From an uncultured virus (IMG/VR IMGVR_UViG_3300032073_000002) (Duplodnaviria; Heunggongvirae; Uroviricota; Caudoviricetes): DNA of 64,000 nt. The notes below the pieces were generated by a model that was not told where the DNA came from, did no database searches, and was given only the letters and a program-made list of their open reading frames with translations. The stretch is from the IMG/VR virus record IMGVR_UViG_3300032073_000002, one strand, 5' to 3'. Of this stretch, positions 25,041-63,168 are shown piece after piece (the stretch's first letter is position 1; each line of letters starts with the position of its first letter). A program made the translations under genes and the position numbers.

Positions 25041-25463
25041 TTATTTAGGATAATTATGTCTGCGATGTGACAATTTTGTATCGTAATCAATCATCGCTCT
25101 TCTGATTGCATCTTCGGCTAACACACTACAATGTAATTTGATTGGTGGTAAGTCTAATGCATCTGCAATATCTTTATCTTTGATTAGTTTTGCTTCTTCT
25201 ATCGTTTTACCCATCATCATATCAACAAACATAGATGAACTTGCAATTGCACTTCCACAACCATAAGTCTTAAACTTTACGTCAATGATTTTTTCTTCGT
25301 CATCTAATAATAATTGAAGTTGCATCACATCCCCACAAGCTGGTGCGCCTGCAAGTCCTGTTGCAACATGAGGGTCATCTCTGTCTAGAGAACCAACGGA
25401 GTGTTTTTTGGGGTTTTGGAGTACGGCTTCAAATCTCTCTACTACTTCTTTACTATATGCCAT
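25041..25463 (-). CDS. iscU: Fe-S cluster scaffold protein
   Basis: GAPACGDVM, GCGSAIASSS, LPPIKLHCSVLAEDA. Confidence 0.95.
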   Translation of the reverse strand: MAYSKEVVERFEAVLQNPKKHSVGSLDRDDPHVATGLAGAPACGDVMQLQLLLDDEEKIIDVKFKTYGCGSAIASSSMFVDMMMGKTIEEAKLIKDKDIADALDLPPIKLHCSVLAEDAIRRAMIDYDTKLSHRRHNYPK

Positions 25464-33370: not shown

Positions 33371-33400
33371 ATTATACAGTATTTAGCACAATGCTGTCAA
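33371..33400 (-). promoter_or_regulatory. sigma70-type promoter for the MTase operon
   Basis: CCTTGACA-N18-TATAAT. Confidence 0.7.
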
Positions 33401-38883: not shown

Positions 38884-39571
38884 TAGAAGTCACGAAGCTC
38901 ACATCAATAATACCACTACATGACTGACCACTTGGACAACCTGTATCTGAACCCGATTTTTGAATGATATCTATATCATTGCCTGAACCAGTTAAGACTG
39001 CAGTAATTTTATTATCTGTTGCGTCTGCCTGAATAGTATTAATGTCATTTGTTGAACCTGTAACAGTCCAGTTCCAAACAGCATTGTCACTATCTATCTT
39101 TGTTGTGAATACATTACTTGAACCACCTACTACTAAGTCCCAGTTTAAGTATTCTGCAGACTGGTCGTATCCAACATCAATATCAAATGTGTTAGATGAA
39201 CCTGTAACAGCTCCTAACATATTTAAGTTATCTGCTGAACCTTGATAACCAACGTTCCAATCCATTGAGTTTGAATCACCAGTAAAAGTTAAATTTACTG
39301 TTGAACTATCTGCAATGAATGGGCCGTATAGTTTGTTACTGTCACCGAATTGTACTAGTGTTAAACTATTGGTAGCACCAGTCAATAACATATCTATTGA
39401 CGTACCACTAAAGTCATCACCACCAACTTTGTTACCATAACCTTTTTGTGTTATGTTTAAAGTAAGCGCAGTACCCGATTGTTGTAACCAAACTTCATTA
39501 TCGTCTGCTCCAGCAAATGCTAAAGTTGACGCTCCTAATGTTAACATCATGAGTAATATTTTATTCTTCAT
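38843..39571 (-). CDS. secreted curlin-like repeat protein
   Basis: Signal peptide ending ALA-type (LAFA); ~23-26 aa repeats with G-x-x-N (QKGYGN, QFGDSN, TGDSN, TGSSN, GGSSN, TGSTN, TGSGN). Confidence 0.75.
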   Translation of the reverse strand: MKNKILLMMLTLGASTLAFAGADDNEVWLQQSGTALTLNITQKGYGNKVGGDDFSGTSIDMLLTGATNSLTLVQFGDSNKLYGPFIADSSTVNLTFTGDSNSMDWNVGYQGSADNLNMLGAVTGSSNTFDIDVGYDQSAEYLNWDLVVGGSSNVFTTKIDSDNAVWNWTVTGSTNDINTIQADATDNKITAVLTGSGNDIDIIQKSGSDTGCPSGQSCSGIIDVSFVTSNANIDIVQKDDND

Positions 39572-40469
39572 CTGTTATTTCCTCTGTTGAATGTTTCTCG
39601 TTCCTTCCATGAGTTCCATGTGGGTGTCGATGTCCATCCTTTATTATCCAAAAGTCTCTATCATGACCTTGGTATATTAGTTCCAAGACGGCAAGTTCTA
39701 TCGCTGAACGAGTTGCTTTTGTAACTCCCTCATTGGCTGCGACGCCATCTTCCATTTCCACTAACTTCGTATCCATATCAACGAAGCGGAATACATCATA
39801 ACCACCACCTGTACTAAGAATCGTTTTCTGAGTCTGTACATTCAGCAAAATTTCACCTGTTAAAGTTGATATTCCTCTCAACGATATGGTGACAACATCC
39901 CTACGATAGGAAGCACTTGAACCAATACCTAAGTATCTTGCGCCTCTACCACCGCTTTCAATGTTAGTATCATAACCAACTATCCCACCGTCAAGCAGGA
40001 TACCAGCAAACAGCAATGGTTGAATACCTGTTGGAGCATTCTCATTTCCATCTTGGTTTGCAAAGTCTTCTCTTGCAGAACGAACTATTTGACGCTCTCT
40101 TATTAGTGCATCTAAGTTTGTTCTTTCTACAACTCTAAACCATTTACCTTTTCCAGCAGTCTTCAAGGCATCAATCAAAAATGATTCTGCACCTTGGGTT
40201 ACTGCAGTAGAGAAAGATGCAATTCCATCTTTACTCTTACGTTGTCCTGTCTTATCTTGAAAAGCGTATACTGCAACTACTGGCATCGTATCCGCTGCTG
40301 GTAAATCAGACAACTCTTGATAAGTAGGTATATTTACCACTTCTGCTTCTTCAACGCATGTACCTAACCTTTCCATCACAATGGAAGAACATGAGTCTGT
40401 CATGCTGGGAATACTAGCACACCCACTCATGAGTAGAACTAGTAGTCCTACTGTTAGTATATTTTTCAT
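39561..40469 (-). CDS. csgG: curli secretion outer-membrane lipoprotein
   Basis: Lipobox LMSGC; VAVYAFQDKTGQRK, FSTAVTQGA, WFRVVER..LDALIRERQI, GGIVGYDTN..SGG.GARYLGIG. Confidence 0.9.
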   Translation of the reverse strand: MKNILTVGLLVLLMSGCASIPSMTDSCSSIVMERLGTCVEEAEVVNIPTYQELSDLPAADTMPVVAVYAFQDKTGQRKSKDGIASFSTAVTQGAESFLIDALKTAGKGKWFRVVERTNLDALIRERQIVRSAREDFANQDGNENAPTGIQPLLFAGILLDGGIVGYDTNIESGGRGARYLGIGSSASYRRDVVTISLRGISTLTGEILLNVQTQKTILSTGGGYDVFRFVDMDTKLVEMEDGVAANEGVTKATRSAIELAVLELIYQGHDRDFWIIKDGHRHPHGTHGRNEKHSTEEITDEE

Positions 40470-46462: not shown

Positions 46463-46495
46463 AGTATACTAAAAAGCTGATGGCATTGTCAAGGC
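46463..46495 (-). promoter_or_regulatory. early promoter, GCCTTGACAATGC class
   Basis: GCCTTGACAATGCC...TATACT, 18 nt spacer. Confidence 0.75.
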
Positions 46496-49160: not shown

Positions 49161-49193
49161 ATGCTATCATTAGCTGCATGGCATTGTCAAGGC
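49161..49193 (-). promoter_or_regulatory. early promoter, GCCTTGACAATGC class
   Basis: GCCTTGACAATGCC...TAGCAT, 18 nt spacer. Confidence 0.7.
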
Positions 49194-49407: not shown

Positions 49408-49440
49408 AGTATATCAAAAAGCTTGAGGCATAGTCAAGGC
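49408..49440 (-). promoter_or_regulatory. early promoter, GCCTTGAC(A/T)ATGC class
   Basis: GCCTTGACTATGCC...TATACT, 18 nt spacer. Confidence 0.7.
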
Positions 49441-49444
49441 AAGA

Positions 49445-50113
49445 TTAGCGTGGGATGTAGGAGTTTTTTCTGTGGATTTGGTGTTGGTTTTCGTCTAGGT
49501 TTATTCTCTCATCGATAATCATTTTGTCTTCGATGTCTGTAAACCACATTGAAATAGTATGTCTAGGGCCTCTCCTTACAGCACTAACGCCATGTTCGAG
49601 GTAAAGACCTTGAAAAAGAAGACCACCAGCGGTCTCTATGGGATGCGTATGGCCTATTGGATAGGTTTCACTGGGTGGGAAGTAGGTTTCACCACCTCTA
49701 AAGTTATCATTTAGATATAAAATGCATGTCCATTCTCTTGAATTTCCTGTCTCGGGAACTGCATCTTCGTTAATTTCTGAGTTAGAATAGGTATCAAAGT
49801 GTGGGATTTGAACTCCACCTATGTCCCATTCGTTTAGTGCCATCATTTCGGGATAGAAATGTTGTCCAGTTTCATTGAATATATGTGATGTGCAAATTTG
49901 AGCTGCACGTCTAAAACAATCACGTACCCAAGATGTTCTTATGTGACAGAAATCTATGGCACGATAGTCTGTACCGTCACCAACTGTTCTTAAATGTTTA
50001 TGCGTTAGATGATACTTTATCAGACTCTGGCAGTCCATCGGACTCAGTATGTTCTGAATTGTTATCGGCTGATACACTTTGTATGTATTTTGCAAGTGCT
50101 TGTCGTTTCTCAT
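49445..50113 (-). CDS. prolyl-4-hydroxylase-like 2OG-Fe(II) oxygenase
   Basis: PHFD, ILYLNDNFRGGET.F, EHGVSAV..G.R. Confidence 0.85.
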   Translation of the reverse strand: MRNDKHLQNTYKVYQPITIQNILSPMDCQSLIKYHLTHKHLRTVGDGTDYRAIDFCHIRTSWVRDCFRRAAQICTSHIFNETGQHFYPEMMALNEWDIGGVQIPHFDTYSNSEINEDAVPETGNSREWTCILYLNDNFRGGETYFPPSETYPIGHTHPIETAGGLLFQGLYLEHGVSAVRRGPRHTISMWFTDIEDKMIIDERINLDENQHQIHRKNSYIPR

Positions 50114-50612
50114 ACTCTATTCTCTTAGCTCTTTCTTTAGGTCGTGATTTTAATGCACGGTCTAATTTCAATTTTGAAGCACGTTGTAAGAAGATGATAC
50201 CATTAAGATGGTCGACTTCATGTTGAACACATCTTGATGCAAGTCCATCTAGACTTATAACTTTTTCTTCACCTTGTGCAGTTTGATATTTTAGTTCTAT
50301 CATTTTTGCACGTTTAATCATAAGGTACATATCGGGAAACGATAAGCAACCTTCTTTCATTAAATCTGTTTCTTGTGATACCTTTGTTATCTCGGGATTA
50401 AAGAAACAAACATTTCCTTGGTCTTGAGATTTCATTACAAAAACTCTTGCATCCAATCCTACTTGGTTTGCACTCAAACCTATTCCACCAAATCTATCCA
50501 TTGCTTCACTAAGTGCAGTTTCTATTTCTTCTGCATCCTTTCTTTCTTCAAAGTTGAATAGTTGTGGGGGTGTTCTTAAAACCTTAGAGGCTTCTTCTAT
50601 CAATTGATACAT
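49998..50612 (-). CDS. def: peptide deformylase
   Basis: GIGLSANQVG, EGCLS, QHEVDHL. Confidence 0.95.
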   Translation of the reverse strand: MYQLIEEASKVLRTPPQLFNFEERKDAEEIETALSEAMDRFGGIGLSANQVGLDARVFVMKSQDQGNVCFFNPEITKVSQETDLMKEGCLSFPDMYLMIKRAKMIELKYQTAQGEEKVISLDGLASRCVQHEVDHLNGIIFLQRASKLKLDRALKSRPKERAKRIEYEKRQALAKYIQSVSADNNSEHTESDGLPESDKVSSNA

Positions 50613-55599: not shown

Positions 55600-55846
55600 T
55601 TATAAAAAACATACCCAGCATCATAAAGAATACAGTCACCTGTATAACTGCTGGTACGACGACGAATAATTGCATTGCAGAAAAGTCACCCTTCATAAAG
55701 AAGTCTTCTTCATACCATGTTTCTAATTCTTCGTTCGTTGCTTCCTTCACAGTATTATTTAGTAAGGTTAATTCACCCTGTTTTAAAGATGTCAAGTCGT
55801 ATACTGATTGTCTGACTACGGGTCTCTTCCAAGAGTCGTGCTTCAC
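55583..55846 (-). CDS. small membrane protein
   Basis: C-terminal TM; coupled to cytochrome c. Confidence 0.6.
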   Translation of the reverse strand: MKHDSWKRPVVRQSVYDLTSLKQGELTLLNNTVKEATNEELETWYEEDFFMKGDFSAMQLFVVVPAVIQVTVFFMMLGMFFINEKLF

Positions 55847-56286
55847 TTAAGTTCAACCTCAATAAATTTACCAATCATATTGATATCTGCATCTGACAAC
55901 ATACCTGCTTGAGCCCACATCGTGGAACTCATTGCACCGACCTCACCTCTATTCTTATAAGTGTTAAGTCTGTCAACTATGTAATCTGCAGATTGACCAG
56001 CAAGTTTTGGGAAGACTGCCATACCTTGACCTTCTTGACCATGACAAGCTGCACAACCACTCCATAAACTTCTGATTTGACTAAACTCATCTAAGTTTGC
56101 AAGAGCTTGTTTTGCTTGTAACTGTTCTACCACAGTTCCGTTTAGTTCCACATACTCTGCATAACACATACCAGTGCAAGACTGATTACTGCTATATCCT
56201 GTGTACTCTAGATTAGGGTAAATTTTAAGTGAAAAGAATGCAAATATTACCATGCATCCTACTAGTGTCATTCCTAATTCTTTCAT
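55843..56286 (-). CDS. membrane-anchored class I cytochrome c (c553/c4-like)
   Basis: N-terminal TM; CAACH heme motif; FPKLAGQ; distal Met in MWAQA. Confidence 0.9.
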   Translation of the reverse strand: MKELGMTLVGCMVIFAFFSLKIYPNLEYTGYSSNQSCTGMCYAEYVELNGTVVEQLQAKQALANLDEFSQIRSLWSGCAACHGQEGQGMAVFPKLAGQSADYIVDRLNTYKNRGEVGAMSSTMWAQAGMLSDADINMIGKFIEVELK

Positions 56287-60636: not shown

Positions 60637-61440
60637 CTATTTAGGTGTTTGGATATGCCAGAACCTACGGAAGTGAACATAATTAGGCGGTATGGTACCA
60701 AACTTAACTGGTTTATTAGGATTCGTAGGGTGTAAATCTTCTGTTGTCCAACTGTATACATCTCTTCTATAGAGTTCATTTTCTACAATAACACCGAAGT
60801 CGGTATTCAAATCTTCATCATCATACCTTGTATAAGTCTTACCTATCTCATCTAAGTAATCTTCTACATGTTTGTCATTAAAGAAAGCTTCCCAATTATC
60901 AAACCCATTGAAGACTCTACTATTTTTTCTTTGGTGTTTTGATTGGCCTGGTATATAATCCCATTCGGTCACTTCTTCTTGTCTCATCCATGGTTCAGCT
61001 GTTGGTTTTGTATTGACTGCAGTTTCTAAAAACATTTCGTCTGTATGATTGAATGCTCTTCTTAAATCATCGTAAATATTTTGAACATGATATAGAGTAC
61101 CAAAGTGTATAATTAAATCCCACTTCCTATCAAATGACCACTCTTCATTATGATTGATACACAACTTCTCTGAGTCTGTGTCTATACCATCCAATAGTTC
61201 TTGTCTTGCATCTGCATAGGAAACTGTTGCACCTAGTTTCTCAAAGTGTCTACCAACTAGTCCATGTGCAGTTCCTAGTTCTAGGATAGTCTTCCCATCA
61301 AACCAGTCTTCACCTTTACAATCAATAACTTTTTTAACTCTTTTTTCTGTTGGTAGGTACATTGTATCTATTTGACCTGTAGTTTCATTCTTCCATTTAA
61401 AGAAACCTTCCAACCCTTCACCATACTTTATCATCTTCAT
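60637..61440 (-). CDS. class I SAM-dependent methyltransferase (start MKMIK)
   Basis: ILELGTAHG motif I, DAR, FGTLYH. Confidence 0.8.
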   Translation of the reverse strand: MKMIKYGEGLEGFFKWKNETTGQIDTMYLPTEKRVKKVIDCKGEDWFDGKTILELGTAHGLVGRHFEKLGATVSYADARQELLDGIDTDSEKLCINHNEEWSFDRKWDLIIHFGTLYHVQNIYDDLRRAFNHTDEMFLETAVNTKPTAEPWMRQEEVTEWDYIPGQSKHQRKNSRVFNGFDNWEAFFNDKHVEDYLDEIGKTYTRYDDEDLNTDFGVIVENELYRRDVYSWTTEDLHPTNPNKPVKFGTIPPNYVHFRRFWHIQTPK

Positions 61441-61467
61441 ATAGTTATTTATCGCGTATAAATATAT

Positions 61468-61500
61468 GCCTTGACAATGCATATCGTATTTTGGTATACT
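61468..61500 (+). promoter_or_regulatory. plus-strand early promoter, GCCTTGACAATGC class
   Basis: GCCTTGACAATGC...TATACT, 18 nt spacer; same class as the promoters at 46463-46495 and 49161-49193. Confidence 0.75.
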
Positions 61501-61506
61501 TGTAAG

Positions 61507-61823
61507 GTAGGAAGTCGAGACGGAAGATAGATGGTTGTGAGAGGTTGTTCCGTATAGACAAGGTGTTCCACACTGTTAAAGTCAATTAAGACGTGGCATA
61601 TAATCGTGAGGTGTGGATAGAATCCGAACAGAGAAGCTCTAGAAATTCTTGACGAGTTGGGATAGGGACGGTAAACGAACTTCCGTATGGTCAATACCTA
61701 TTGACCTAGATAAAATTGGGGTAAGGCCTCACTAGAAGGACACGGTGTAAAGAATTGGGTTCATACCCAAGACATTGAACGATTCAGTCATGCTAAAAAA
61801 AACCCCTCGAAAGAGGGGTTTTT
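61507..61823 (+). ncRNA. candidate ~320 nt structured non-coding RNA
   Basis: Bounded by a promoter and a terminator; no plus-strand ORF of note; several complementary stems. Confidence 0.55.
61795..61823. terminator. bidirectional Rho-independent terminator
   Basis: A-run-CCCCTC-GAAA-GAGGGG-T-run; follows gp23 on minus and the candidate ncRNA on plus. Confidence 0.9.
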
Positions 61824-61857: not shown

Positions 61858-63168
61858 TTACAGAATGTTTGACACTGCAAATTTTCTGTAGTATTGGTTA
61901 GTACCAGCAGTTGCTAGACCATCACGGCCTGACATGTTGCCAGTGTCAACGAATGGGTTTGAAACCATGCCGTATCTTGTTTTGAAACCAATTTTTGGTT
62001 GGAATGTGTTCTCACCAACTGCACGAACCATTTGTAATGGAACGTATGGGCAATAGAACATACCAGCATCATAAGGGTTAGTTCCTCTATAACCTACTGT
62101 TAAGTAGTCAACACCAGCATATGGGTCAACATATACTTTAACTCTTCCGTTTAAGATACCAGCAAATGTATTGCCTGTGTCGTCAACGTTTAAGTTAGTG
62201 TTAAGAGCAGGAGCGTAATCTAATACACCTGCCATAGATAGAGCAGAAGCTACATCAGATGAACATAGGATAAAGTTACCTTTTCCTCTACGTGTATCTT
62301 TAGCGATGAAGTTGCTTTCTCTTTCTATTTGGAACAATAATCCTTTGAATTTCTCAACTGACCATCTTCCGTTTGCGTCAACGTCAAGGTTGAACGTACC
62401 AGCAGAAGCTGTTGCAGCTGCACCAGTTTTTGCTTGGATGTTAACATTTCTGATAACTTCACGGTTGATTTCAGCAAGAATTTCTGATGAAAGAATATTT
62501 GCTAGTTCTGATTCTGCGTCAAGACCGTGGATTGCTTTGAGGTCTTGTGCTAATTCGAGTGTGTACTCAGCTTTTAATGCTCTGGATTTTGCAGTAACAG
62601 TTGCTTTCTCAATGGTGAATGCCATTTGAGCGAAACCGTTTGATGCTTCAACGTCACCAAGTGCTTCTGCACTTGCTGTTGACATTCCCGCACCTGTATC
62701 AGTCGCATATGAACCATTGAATGGGTCATTATTACGTGCTGCTAAAGGGCCGTCTGCGACAACTTGGTTGTCATTGGAATATTTAGTATCTGCTTCAGCA
62801 TGTAATGCTTCAGTTTTACCTTCTCTTCCTACAGATGGATAGTCATTATATCTTGCTTTCATAGCAAATATAAGTCCTGTTGGGCCTGTCATAGGCTGAA
62901 CACCACAAATGTCGTATGCAACGAGATTTGGCATAGCTCTACGTACTAATGAAATCAAGATTGGATTCCAGTTAGCAACTGCAGAACTTCCAGTAGCATT
63001 TAAAGGTGCTGCTTCCTCAAGAGCTTGACCTTCTTCGAAAAGGGCCTTCTCTTGGTTTTCAAGGATTACAGCAGTAACAGCACGCTTGTAGTTATCTTCG
63101 ATTTTTGGTAAATCGGAGTGTTCTAGAATCGGTTGCCACTTCTCTTGTAAGTTTTCTGATAAAAACAT
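61858..63168 (-). CDS. gp23: major capsid protein
   Basis: LVRRAMPNLVAYDICGVQPMTGPTGLIFAM, KSRALKAEYTLELAQDLKAIHGLDAE, FQPKIGFKTRYG. Confidence 0.98.
   Translation of the reverse strand: MFLSENLQEKWQPILEHSDLPKIEDNYKRAVTAVILENQEKALFEEGQALEEAAPLNATGSSAVANWNPILISLVRRAMPNLVAYDICGVQPMTGPTGLIFAMKARYNDYPSVGREGKTEALHAEADTKYSNDNQVVADGPLAARNNDPFNGSYATDTGAGMSTASAEALGDVEASNGFAQMAFTIEKATVTAKSRALKAEYTLELAQDLKAIHGLDAESELANILSSEILAEINREVIRNVNIQAKTGAAATASAGTFNLDVDANGRWSVEKFKGLLFQIERESNFIAKDTRRGKGNFILCSSDVASALSMAGVLDYAPALNTNLNVDDTGNTFAGILNGRVKVYVDPYAGVDYLTVGYRGTNPYDAGMFYCPYVPLQMVRAVGENTFQPKIGFKTRYGMVSNPFVDTGNMSGRDGLATAGTNQYYRKFAVSNIL

What the first reader, a model, noticed from the sequence alone, without database searches (positions are those of the whole stretch)
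61468..61823. Orphan ~320 nt structured plus-strand RNA with its own early promoter and terminator
Seen: the only clear plus-strand transcription unit in 64 kb. It has a GCCTTGACAATGC-type promoter matching three early minus-strand promoters, no meaningful ORF, and it ends at the bidirectional terminator behind gp23. Complementary segments include ACGGAAG(61520-26)/CTTCCGT(61680-86), TCCACAC(61567-73)/GTGTGGA(61611-17), GGTCAAT/ATTGACC (61689-706) and TTGGGT/ACCCAA (61755-70). It lacks tRNA, tmRNA and RNase P end signatures. Inference: an early phage ncRNA, for example a protein sponge, anti-defence decoy, 6S-like RNA or ribozyme, possibly of an undescribed class.
Basis: partly seen in the sequence, partly recalled or inferred. 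Interest (0 to 1): 0.8.

Follow-up and report, generated by a model that had tools for sequence, protein, structure and literature searches.

The report
New triple-knotted RNA of marine phages
This stretch is a real gene for a tightly folded non-coding RNA of about 285 bases with three pseudoknots; it belongs to an uncatalogued family carried by uncultured ocean phages, and it probably acts as a decoy or scaffold for a host molecule, but its job is not yet shown.

Summary
Confirmed, with corrections. Window 61506-61790 (+) is an RNA gene between a sigma-70 promoter and the hairpin behind gp23 of an uncultured marine T4-like phage. I recovered 89 distinct full-length homologues in 20 clusters, 53-89% identical to the window. 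On 19 aligned sequences, 99.4% of cells pair and 21 of 33 pairs change on both sides. Three pseudoknots covary. G-U outnumbers A-C 189 to 9, which points to the plus strand. The promoter hexamers are kept in 37 of 37 close homologues despite 21 different spacers. The antisense ORF is not conserved. Metatranscriptome contigs from three studies lie within the predicted ends, but strand is not shown. Rfam has no match. 23 of 89 copies abut tRNA-Asp or tRNA-Glu, and some close phages lack the RNA. Best reading (about 50%): an early, stable, trans-acting decoy or scaffold that displays two invariant loops, like raiA, ROOL or GOLLD but with its own fold. This scan noted what is probably the same family twice before on other DNA.

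The parts
61471..61500 (+). Sigma-70-type early promoter: -35 at 61471-76, 18-nt spacer, TG, -10 at 61495-61500
   Evidence: both hexamers kept in 37 of 37 close homologues with upstream DNA, 21 distinct 18-nt spacers; same promoter family on the minus strand
61457..61464 (+). T4-late-promoter-like TATAAATA, the only plus-strand copy in the window; probably incidental
   Evidence: present in 3 of 37 close homologues
61506..61790 (+). Structured ncRNA, about 285 nt; start expected at 61506-61508
   Evidence: Homology boundaries; covariation; RNA-library contigs at 61506-61622, 61507-61742 and 61521-61787
61510..61684 (+). P1: 61510-14 with 61680-84, plus 61516-17 with 61676-77; closes the 5' domain
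   Evidence: 5 of 5 pairs in 39 of 39 close sequences; cognate duplex -7.14 against swapped -4.81 kcal/mol, 0 of 5000 permutations
61520..61553 (+). P2 hairpin, 61520-25 with 61548-53, carrying a 21-24 nt G/U-rich loop with a conserved core near 61530-37
   Evidence: 5-6 bp helix in 20 of 20 clusters with many different sequences
61562..61625 (+). P3: outer 61562-64 with 61623-25, inner 61567-73 with 61611-17; tolerates insertions near 61575 in L362, L407 and L354
   Evidence: Cognate -11.79 against swapped -5.80, 0 of 5000
61581..61597 (+). P4 hairpin with the invariant 9-nt loop 61585-93
   Evidence: Outer pairs covary, inner pairs never vary; motif was also a search seed, see caveat in the full report
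61602..61784 (+). Pseudoknot 1: 61602-07 with 61779-84 (6 bp)
   Evidence: 87-88 of 88-89 sequences paired at each position; 2-7 same-branch double changes at each of the five variable pairs
61632..61672 (+). P5 (about 61636-41 with 61663-69; extra pair 61632-61672), purine-rich internal loop, P5b (61648-49 with 61655-56)
   Evidence: the window carries a 1-nt insertion in the 3' strand
61650..61790 (+). Pseudoknot 2: loop 61650-53 with the 3' tail 61787-90 (4 bp here, 4-9 bp in homologues)
   Evidence: Cognate -5.95 against swapped -4.04, 0 of 5000; columns not alignable, so no per-pair count
61689..61706 (+). P6: 61689-93 with 61702-06; its loop forms pseudoknot 3
   Evidence: 88-89 of 89 paired at each position
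61696..61746 (+). Pseudoknot 3: 61696-98 with 61744-46 (3 bp)
   Evidence: Central pair 89 of 89 paired (63 C-G, 26 G-C), 6 same-branch double changes; both outer pairs have a compensatory variant
61717..61731 (+). P7 hairpin, optional
   Evidence: 73 of 73 paired at all five pairs; absent in 16 of 89
61748..61772 (+). P8 with terminal hairpin 61755-59 with 61766-70
61795..61823 (.). Bidirectional intrinsic terminator shared with gp23 (A8, hairpin 61803-18, T5)
   Evidence: a hairpin of this layout follows 36 of 39 close homologues
61858..63168 (-). Major capsid protein gp23, convergent neighbour
   Evidence: Pfam Gp23, E 7.7e-146; best cultured match Methylophilales phage Melnitz, 66.9%
60637..61440 (-). 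Methyltransferase-domain gene, divergent neighbour, not linked to the RNA
   Evidence: Pfam Methyltransf_23; absent beside most homologues
61449..61694 (-). 81-codon ORF, not a gene
   Evidence: No Pfam hit; start out of frame in homologues, stops and frameshifts vary

Best explanation
The locus encodes a free-standing RNA that acts in trans. Host RNA polymerase transcribes it from a strong sigma-70 promoter at the start of infection; in other phages it is cut out of a transcript shared with tRNA-Asp or tRNA-Glu. It folds into a compact multi-helix body in which two pseudoknots lock the 3' tail into the core and a third ties the 3' domain together, which should make it nuclease-resistant and long-lived. 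Helix sequences drift freely, while two unpaired loops (61585-93 and the core of the P2 loop) and several purine-rich junctions do not. The most likely use is to present those loops to a conserved host partner, a protein or a tRNA, and so to sequester or scaffold it, helping the phage take over translation or blunt a host response. Shown: gene boundaries, promoter conservation, fold, plus strand, non-coding nature, accessory status. Weakly supported: transcription. Inferred: early timing, stability, the partner and the benefit. The probability that it is a genuine structured RNA gene is about 0.97; the confidence below is for the decoy or scaffold mechanism.
For: Covariation in every helix tested. 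Invariant nucleotides fall in loops and junctions. In the window nothing lies downstream to regulate: a terminator and a convergent gp23 follow. Own promoter pattern in 53 of 89 and a same-strand tRNA within 40 nt in 23 of 89. Single copy in 5 of 5 positive contigs, none in two related genomes estimated 83% and 77% complete. No convincing phage-encoded partner: only 5 short ORFs, two of them probably antisense shadows, were shared by three positive genomes and missing from two negative ones, so the partner is more likely a host molecule. raiA RNA has a conserved exposed linker, written UUAGA(C/A)GUAA and proposed as a recognition site (PMC12968392); the invariant loop here reads AUUAAGACG followed by UG.
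Against: No partner, host or phenotype was identified. A ribozyme or a ligand-binding RNA would show the same pattern of conserved loops in a knotted core. The likeness to the raiA linker is 7-8 bases, untested statistically, and sits in a hairpin loop rather than a linker. Transcription rests on unstranded contigs from runs chosen for holding this stretch, and one of the four runs covers 28 of 30 bins like DNA. Folding energy is no better than shuffles. Invariance of the two loops is partly built in by the search seeds.
Confidence: 0.5

Rival explanations
1. A tRNA-handling RNA: the P2 loop pairs with the 3' CCA end of tRNAs, as the T-box antiterminator and the RNase P L15 loop do (recalled), and the RNA processes, protects or holds tRNAs.
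For: A UGGU run is present in the P2 loop of 89 of 89. 23 of 89 copies abut tRNA-Asp or tRNA-Glu, on either side. Multi-domain size.
Against: The loop motif was a parsing criterion. No RNase P or T-box model matches. Most copies have no adjacent tRNA, and co-transcription alone explains adjacency (argued for ROOL and GOLLD in PMC5737381). The nucleotides after pseudoknot 1 are not a conserved CCA end: ACCA follows in 4 of 89.
Confidence: 0.15
2. A new ribozyme class with another chemistry, such as self-cleavage, ligation or DNA or RNA hydrolysis.
For: Three pseudoknots and invariant junction nucleotides.
Against: RNA contigs of 236 and 267 nt run through most of the body without a joint, which argues against efficient internal self-cleavage. 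No Rfam ribozyme matches. The group I reading failed: the pair that would be the guanosine-binding G-C is G-C in 56, T-A in 31 and C-G in 1 of 89.
Confidence: 0.12
3. A ligand-binding RNA: a riboswitch-like aptamer used as a metabolite or alarmone sponge, or in cis in some phages.
For: In several distant members a gene follows directly in the same direction. These phages do use riboswitches: glutamine aptamers lie behind gp23 in L087 and L093.
Against: In the window clade a terminator and convergent gp23 follow (35 of 39 with gp23 antisense within 1.5 kb). Downstream genes differ between clusters, and no expression platform is evident.
Confidence: 0.1
4. A base-pairing small RNA that targets a phage or host mRNA through one of its loops.
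For: Long single-stranded conserved loops.
Against: The 13-base motif occurs once per positive contig with no second site on either strand. The fold is far more elaborate than pairing needs. It overlaps no mRNA. Host targets could not be searched.
Confidence: 0.06
5. A selfish or hitch-hiking cassette, such as a remnant of a mobile intron or a guide RNA, with no benefit to the phage.
For: Patchy presence, sharp boundaries, several insertion sites and both orientations behind gp23; DNA identity of 89-94% where gp23 proteins are 80-92% identical fits lateral exchange.
Against: No nuclease, transposase or reverse transcriptase was seen beside the close homologues examined; single copy; repeated compensatory changes over deep divergence.
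Confidence: 0.05
6. The conservation comes from a protein read from the minus strand (61449-61694), and the structure is incidental.
For: One minus-strand frame is stop-free for 38-92 codons in all 20 clusters; variation is slightly higher at its third positions (0.28 against 0.23).
Against: No shared start codon (none found in 10 of 20 clusters); frame-breaking length changes between anchors; stops at varying places; G-U to A-C ratio of 189 to 9 favours the plus strand.
Confidence: 0.02

Closest known systems
raiA motif RNA (PMC12968392; abstract, parts 1-3 of 6 of the text and search passages read)
   Same: Size class of 200-300 nt, trans-acting, multi-junction fold with pseudoknots, optional peripheral stems, and a conserved exposed single strand of similar letters.
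   Different: raiA has two pseudoknots made by an internal linker and a P1 joining the 5' and 3' ends, and occurs in Bacillota and Actinomycetota. Here P1 closes only the 5' two-thirds, the 3' tail makes two of three pseudoknots, and all copies whose context was examined look like marine phage DNA. No Rfam match.
GOLLD and ROOL RNAs (PMC12286853 and PMC5737381; search passages read)
   Same: Ornate phage RNAs of unknown function, often near tRNA genes; ROOL also has three pseudoknots.
   Different: ROOL averages 581 nt and GOLLD often exceeds 800 nt, against 264-304 nt here. No Rfam match. No covarying self-complementary kissing loops were seen, and oligomerisation is untested.
Phage T4 RNA C and RNA D (PMC3014915; one passage read)
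   Same: Small RNAs of unknown role transcribed from the tRNA region of a T4-type phage.
   Different: Much shorter (recalled); no direct sequence comparison was made, and blastn of this RNA found no match to cultured phages beyond the terminator hairpin.
Candidate viral structured RNAs of Fremin et al. 2023 (PMC10690425; passages and four supplementary files searched)
   Same: Same source collection (IMG/VR) and same kind of covariation evidence.
   Different: Their candidates are 29-151 nt, so the whole RNA is not among them. A fragment could be: the sequence and alignment supplements could not be read.

Membership tests
raiA motif RNA | Match to the Rfam covariance models | tested here: not met
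   0 matches at E<=10 for the window RNA; none over the RNA in 23 locus scans of homologues. That a raiA model is in this Rfam copy is recalled, not shown by a call.
raiA motif RNA | P1 formed by the 5' and 3' ends; both pseudoknots made by the linker between P5 and P6 | tested here: not met
   P1 closes 61510-61684 only; the 3' tail forms pseudoknots 1 and 2; raiA layout
raiA motif RNA | Conserved exposed single strand UUAGA(C/A)GUAA | tested here: inconclusive
   Similar but not identical loop at 61585-95, in a hairpin
GOLLD / ROOL | Length above 500 nt and match to the Rfam models | tested here: not met
   264-304 nt for cluster representatives; no match
GOLLD / ROOL | Phage-borne, often next to tRNA genes | tested here: met
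   23 of 89 abut a tRNA, 42 of 89 lie within 1.5 kb of gp23
GOLLD / ROOL | RNA-only nanocage assembly | not testable with these tools
   Needs mass photometry or cryo-EM
Group I intron | Invariant G-C pair with a bulged neighbour in P7, and a P4-P6 domain (recalled) | tested here: not met
   The candidate helix (pseudoknot 1) is unbulged and the candidate pair varies among G-C, T-A and C-G; the RNA interrupts no gene
RNase P RNA | P4 with a bulged U joining conserved regions I and V, and P1 joining both ends (recalled) | tested here: not met
   No Rfam match; topology differs
tmRNA / tRNA | tRNA-like acceptor and T arms, CCA end, tag reading frame | tested here: not met
   ARAGORN negative; plus-strand frames through the core are short and variable; no conserved CCA
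6S RNA | Single long rod with a central bubble (recalled) | tested here: not met
   Multi-branched fold with three pseudoknots; no Rfam match
Self-cleaving ribozymes | Site-specific self-cleavage | not testable with these tools
   No Rfam match; needs an assay

The most novel reading that the evidence does not exclude
The RNA is a new kind of phage-encoded tRNA-handling machine: a protein-free, triple-pseudoknotted RNA that grips tRNA 3' ends through its invariant P2 loop and either processes them as a new ribozyme class or shields them from host tRNA-targeting defences and starvation sensing during infection.
Probability: 0.15. Interest if true: 0.92.

Novelty: new variant of a known kind. 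Interest (0 to 1): 0.7.

Why it matters
Complex bacterial and phage RNAs above 200 nt are few, and several (raiA, ROOL, GOLLD) still lack a function. This adds a new fold with three covarying pseudoknots from ocean phages, turning up in RNA libraries of several independent studies. It is small enough to synthesise, probe, assay for catalysis and solve by cryo-EM. Because it sits alone between a promoter and a terminator here, and beside tRNAs elsewhere, it makes the old question of what tRNA-region RNAs of T4-type phages do directly testable. I rate it a new RNA class within a known broad kind; a catalytic or tRNA-binding activity would make it categorically new.

Tried and rejected
Group I intron remnant: prompted by an optional 3' module in L093, L084 and L292; rejected because the would-be G-binding pair varies and the module is a separate cargo, found even after a tRNA-Asp in L466. 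T-loop mimicry by the P4 loop: rejected because the bases that would open the T-loop are paired and covary in P4. D-loop mimicry by the P2 loop: only 2 of 38 phage tRNAs carry the same 6-base pattern and 17 of 38 a looser one, so inconclusive. Pairing of the P2 loop with the P4 loop: possible on paper, no compensatory change among the top 60 pairs. My first P5b register and the outer P8 pairs were wrong and were replaced. Coding on either strand: rejected. Partner protein by gene co-occurrence in 3 positive and 2 negative genomes: nothing convincing. Scan 24 returned 82 stretches with no family member. GTDB genomes: 0 hits with a 23-base pattern that fits the main subfamilies but not the L402, L604, L407, L606 or L354 types; the second scan had a wrong gap length and says nothing. 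Cultured phages and plasmids: no match beyond terminator hairpins or short chance pieces. No covariance model could be built, so remote homologues were sought only by exact patterns and nucleotide HMMs. Absence of RNA-library cover over 61001-61500 in three runs is not taken as evidence of silence. Runs X20-X22 (small or no share) were not used. Literature searches found no description of this family; the Minerva preprint 10.64898/2026.09.22.753630 (abstract and outline only) covers other RNAs.

Full report
Setting. The window is part of a T4-like phage genome read almost wholly on the minus strand: gp23, a gp19-like tail protein, UvsY and a 2OG-Fe(II) oxygenase flank the finding, and 68 of 76 ATG-started ORFs of 100 aa or more are on minus. 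The best cultured gp23 match is Methylophilales phage Melnitz at 66.9%, so the clade is uncultured. The window also encodes IscU and peptide deformylase. PMC5332604 (passages read) links an IscU-carrying marine phage to SAR86; that is only a host guess, untested here. No whole genome was held.

Observation. Nothing matches in ARAGORN or Rfam: the 6-kb scan gave only sub-threshold hits, those overlapping the element driven by the terminator, and the RNA alone gave 0 at E<=10. Folding energy is not evidence: z is -2.13 with the terminator and +0.42 without.

Homologues. Of 80 gp23 loci fetched, 1 carried the element; among ten close ones printed (79-86% gp23 identity) nine lacked it. Of 462 pieces holding the 13-base seed, 322 scored 30 bits or more with an HMM, 274 parsed, and 48 were dropped, most cut by contig ends, some with an insertion, a deletion or a missed anchor. 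They reduce to 89 distinct full-length sequences in 20 clusters at 90% identity, 53-89% identical to the window. In the close clade the RNA is 89-94% identical in DNA while gp23 is 80-92% and neighbouring proteins 51-84% identical in amino acids, and similarity stops at the promoter and at the terminator.

Promoter and terminator. All 37 close homologues with upstream DNA keep both hexamers at 18-nt spacing with 21 different spacers; 36 of 39 have an A-run, hairpin, T-run terminator downstream. Across the family 53 of 89 have a promoter pattern just upstream, 23 of 89 abut a same-strand tRNA (12 with tRNA-Asp on the 5' side; 2 tRNA-Asp and 9 tRNA-Glu on the 3' side), and 42 of 89 lie within 1.5 kb of gp23: 35 antisense, and 7 on the same strand in a clade whose gp23 is only 61-66% identical.

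Structure. On a plain MAFFT alignment of 19 sequences, 33 pairs from the well-aligned part pair in 99.4% of 627 cells; 21 pairs change on both sides; 0 of 500 shuffles reach this; slid controls give 31-44%. The structure was derived from these sequences, and P1-P3 were left out there because MAFFT is off register between subfamilies. For those helices and pseudoknot 2 I compared own against swapped strands among the 20 cluster representatives: every helix gave 0 of 5000 permutations. A few representatives were mis-anchored in that test, which weakens rather than inflates it, but relatedness is not fully removed. A tree-based count on the 89 sequences shows repeated same-branch double changes: 7, 2, 6, 7 and 4 at five pairs of pseudoknot 1, 6 at the central pair of pseudoknot 3, 7 in P5b, 6 in P6 and 7 in P7. 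Pseudoknot 3 emerged from an unbiased mutual-information scan; in the 16 sequences without P7 only its central pair is kept. Over 33 pairs there are 2583 Watson-Crick, 189 G-U, 9 A-C, 74 other and 82 gapped cells, so the plus strand is the folded one.

Caveat on invariance. The P4 loop was a search seed and the P2-loop core a parsing rule. However, loci found with other seeds, including distant L265 and L270/L275, carry the P4 loop where they cover it, and distant loci found by the P4 loop carry the P2 core.

Coding. The 81-codon minus ORF starts in frame only in the window, through a 1-nt insertion; homologues show stops and frameshifts. One minus frame stays open for 38-92 codons in all clusters but has no shared start and no clear third-position signal.

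Expression. 20 of 22 listed runs hold the stretch or part of it, 15 on record as RNA, from 11 studies. I laid 4 of them. Contigs with no differing letters span 61507-61742 (X5), 61521-61787 (X6), and 61506-61622 and 61593-61718 (X15), from three studies; two start within one base of the predicted start, though the X5 contig has 11 unmatched letters before it. X1 covers 28 of 30 bins and runs across the promoter, as DNA would. These are assembled contigs from runs picked for holding the stretch: they give no strand or level and are a weak hint only.

Distribution. One copy in each of five positive contigs; none in two related genomes of 151 kb and 140 kb, estimated 83% and 77% complete. None in GTDB genomes by one valid pattern, in cultured phages or in plasmids. 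No partner gene tracks it.

How it works. A cis role is excluded in this clade by the layout. The fold buries the 3' end, helices drift and loops do not, and no phage protein accompanies it, so I favour a stable early RNA that binds a host partner (0.5). Rivals are a tRNA-handling RNA (0.15), another ribozyme (0.12), a ligand sponge (0.10), a pairing sRNA (0.06), a selfish cassette (0.05) and a coding artefact (0.02). None of these functions was tested.

Comparison. It lives like GOLLD, ROOL and T4 RNA C and D, and resembles raiA in size and in one exposed motif, but fails membership of each where testable. The searches named under Tried and rejected found no description in print; unread supplements of PMC10690425 could hold a fragment, and subscription-only papers were not searched. 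Two earlier notes of this scan describe what is probably the same family on other genomes. The first prompted my search for tRNA-linked members and reported two pseudoknots; the second, seen, reports three, as found here.

Verdict. A real, uncatalogued, triple-pseudoknot RNA class of marine T4-like phages; function open; interest 0.7.

Noticed in passing
L087:1874-1990, L093:1835-1898; similar sequence seen by eye in L014 and L117: Glutamine riboswitch aptamers above the Rfam threshold, single or tandem, on the gp23 strand just behind gp23 and upstream of a 47-60 aa basic peptide gene. Not found in the window.
   Followed up: partly
L084, L093, L292, L466 and others, directly 3' of the RNA or of tRNA-Asp: An optional module of about 55-60 nt folding as a hairpin with two internal loops, inside the same promoter-terminator unit; no Rfam match. 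Possibly a second small RNA class.
   Followed up: partly
L316, L320, L450, L453 (3' of the RNA) and L419 (3' of tRNA-Glu): A different element of about 100 nt closed by a 9-bp stem, with no Rfam match.
   Followed up: partly
L362:510-604 and copies L396, L406, L423, L633: A roughly 95-nt insertion inside the RNA at the P3/P4 junction; L407 and L354 have other insertions in the same domain.
   Followed up: partly
L327: A shortened copy lacking the 3' strand of P1, P6 and P7, still followed by tRNA-Glu; a pseudogene or a minimal form.
   Followed up: no
L433: A mosaic copy with the P2 stem of the distant L265 type in a close-clade body, suggesting recombination within the RNA gene.
   Followed up: no
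L082, L084, L089, L100, L117, L135, about 90-310 nt upstream of the RNA, minus strand: A conserved 72-73 aa protein gene of unknown family often sits divergent from the RNA; seen by eye also in relatives lacking the RNA.
   Followed up: no
window 55843-56286, 25041-25463, 39561-40469, 49998-50612: Host-like genes: a small protein with a CxxCH heme-binding motif, IscU, a CsgG-like protein and peptide deformylase.
   Followed up: no
window 33373-33400, 46465-46495, 49161-49193, 49408-49440 (minus strand): A family of early promoters with GCC before the -35 hexamer and an 18-nt spacer.
   Followed up: partly
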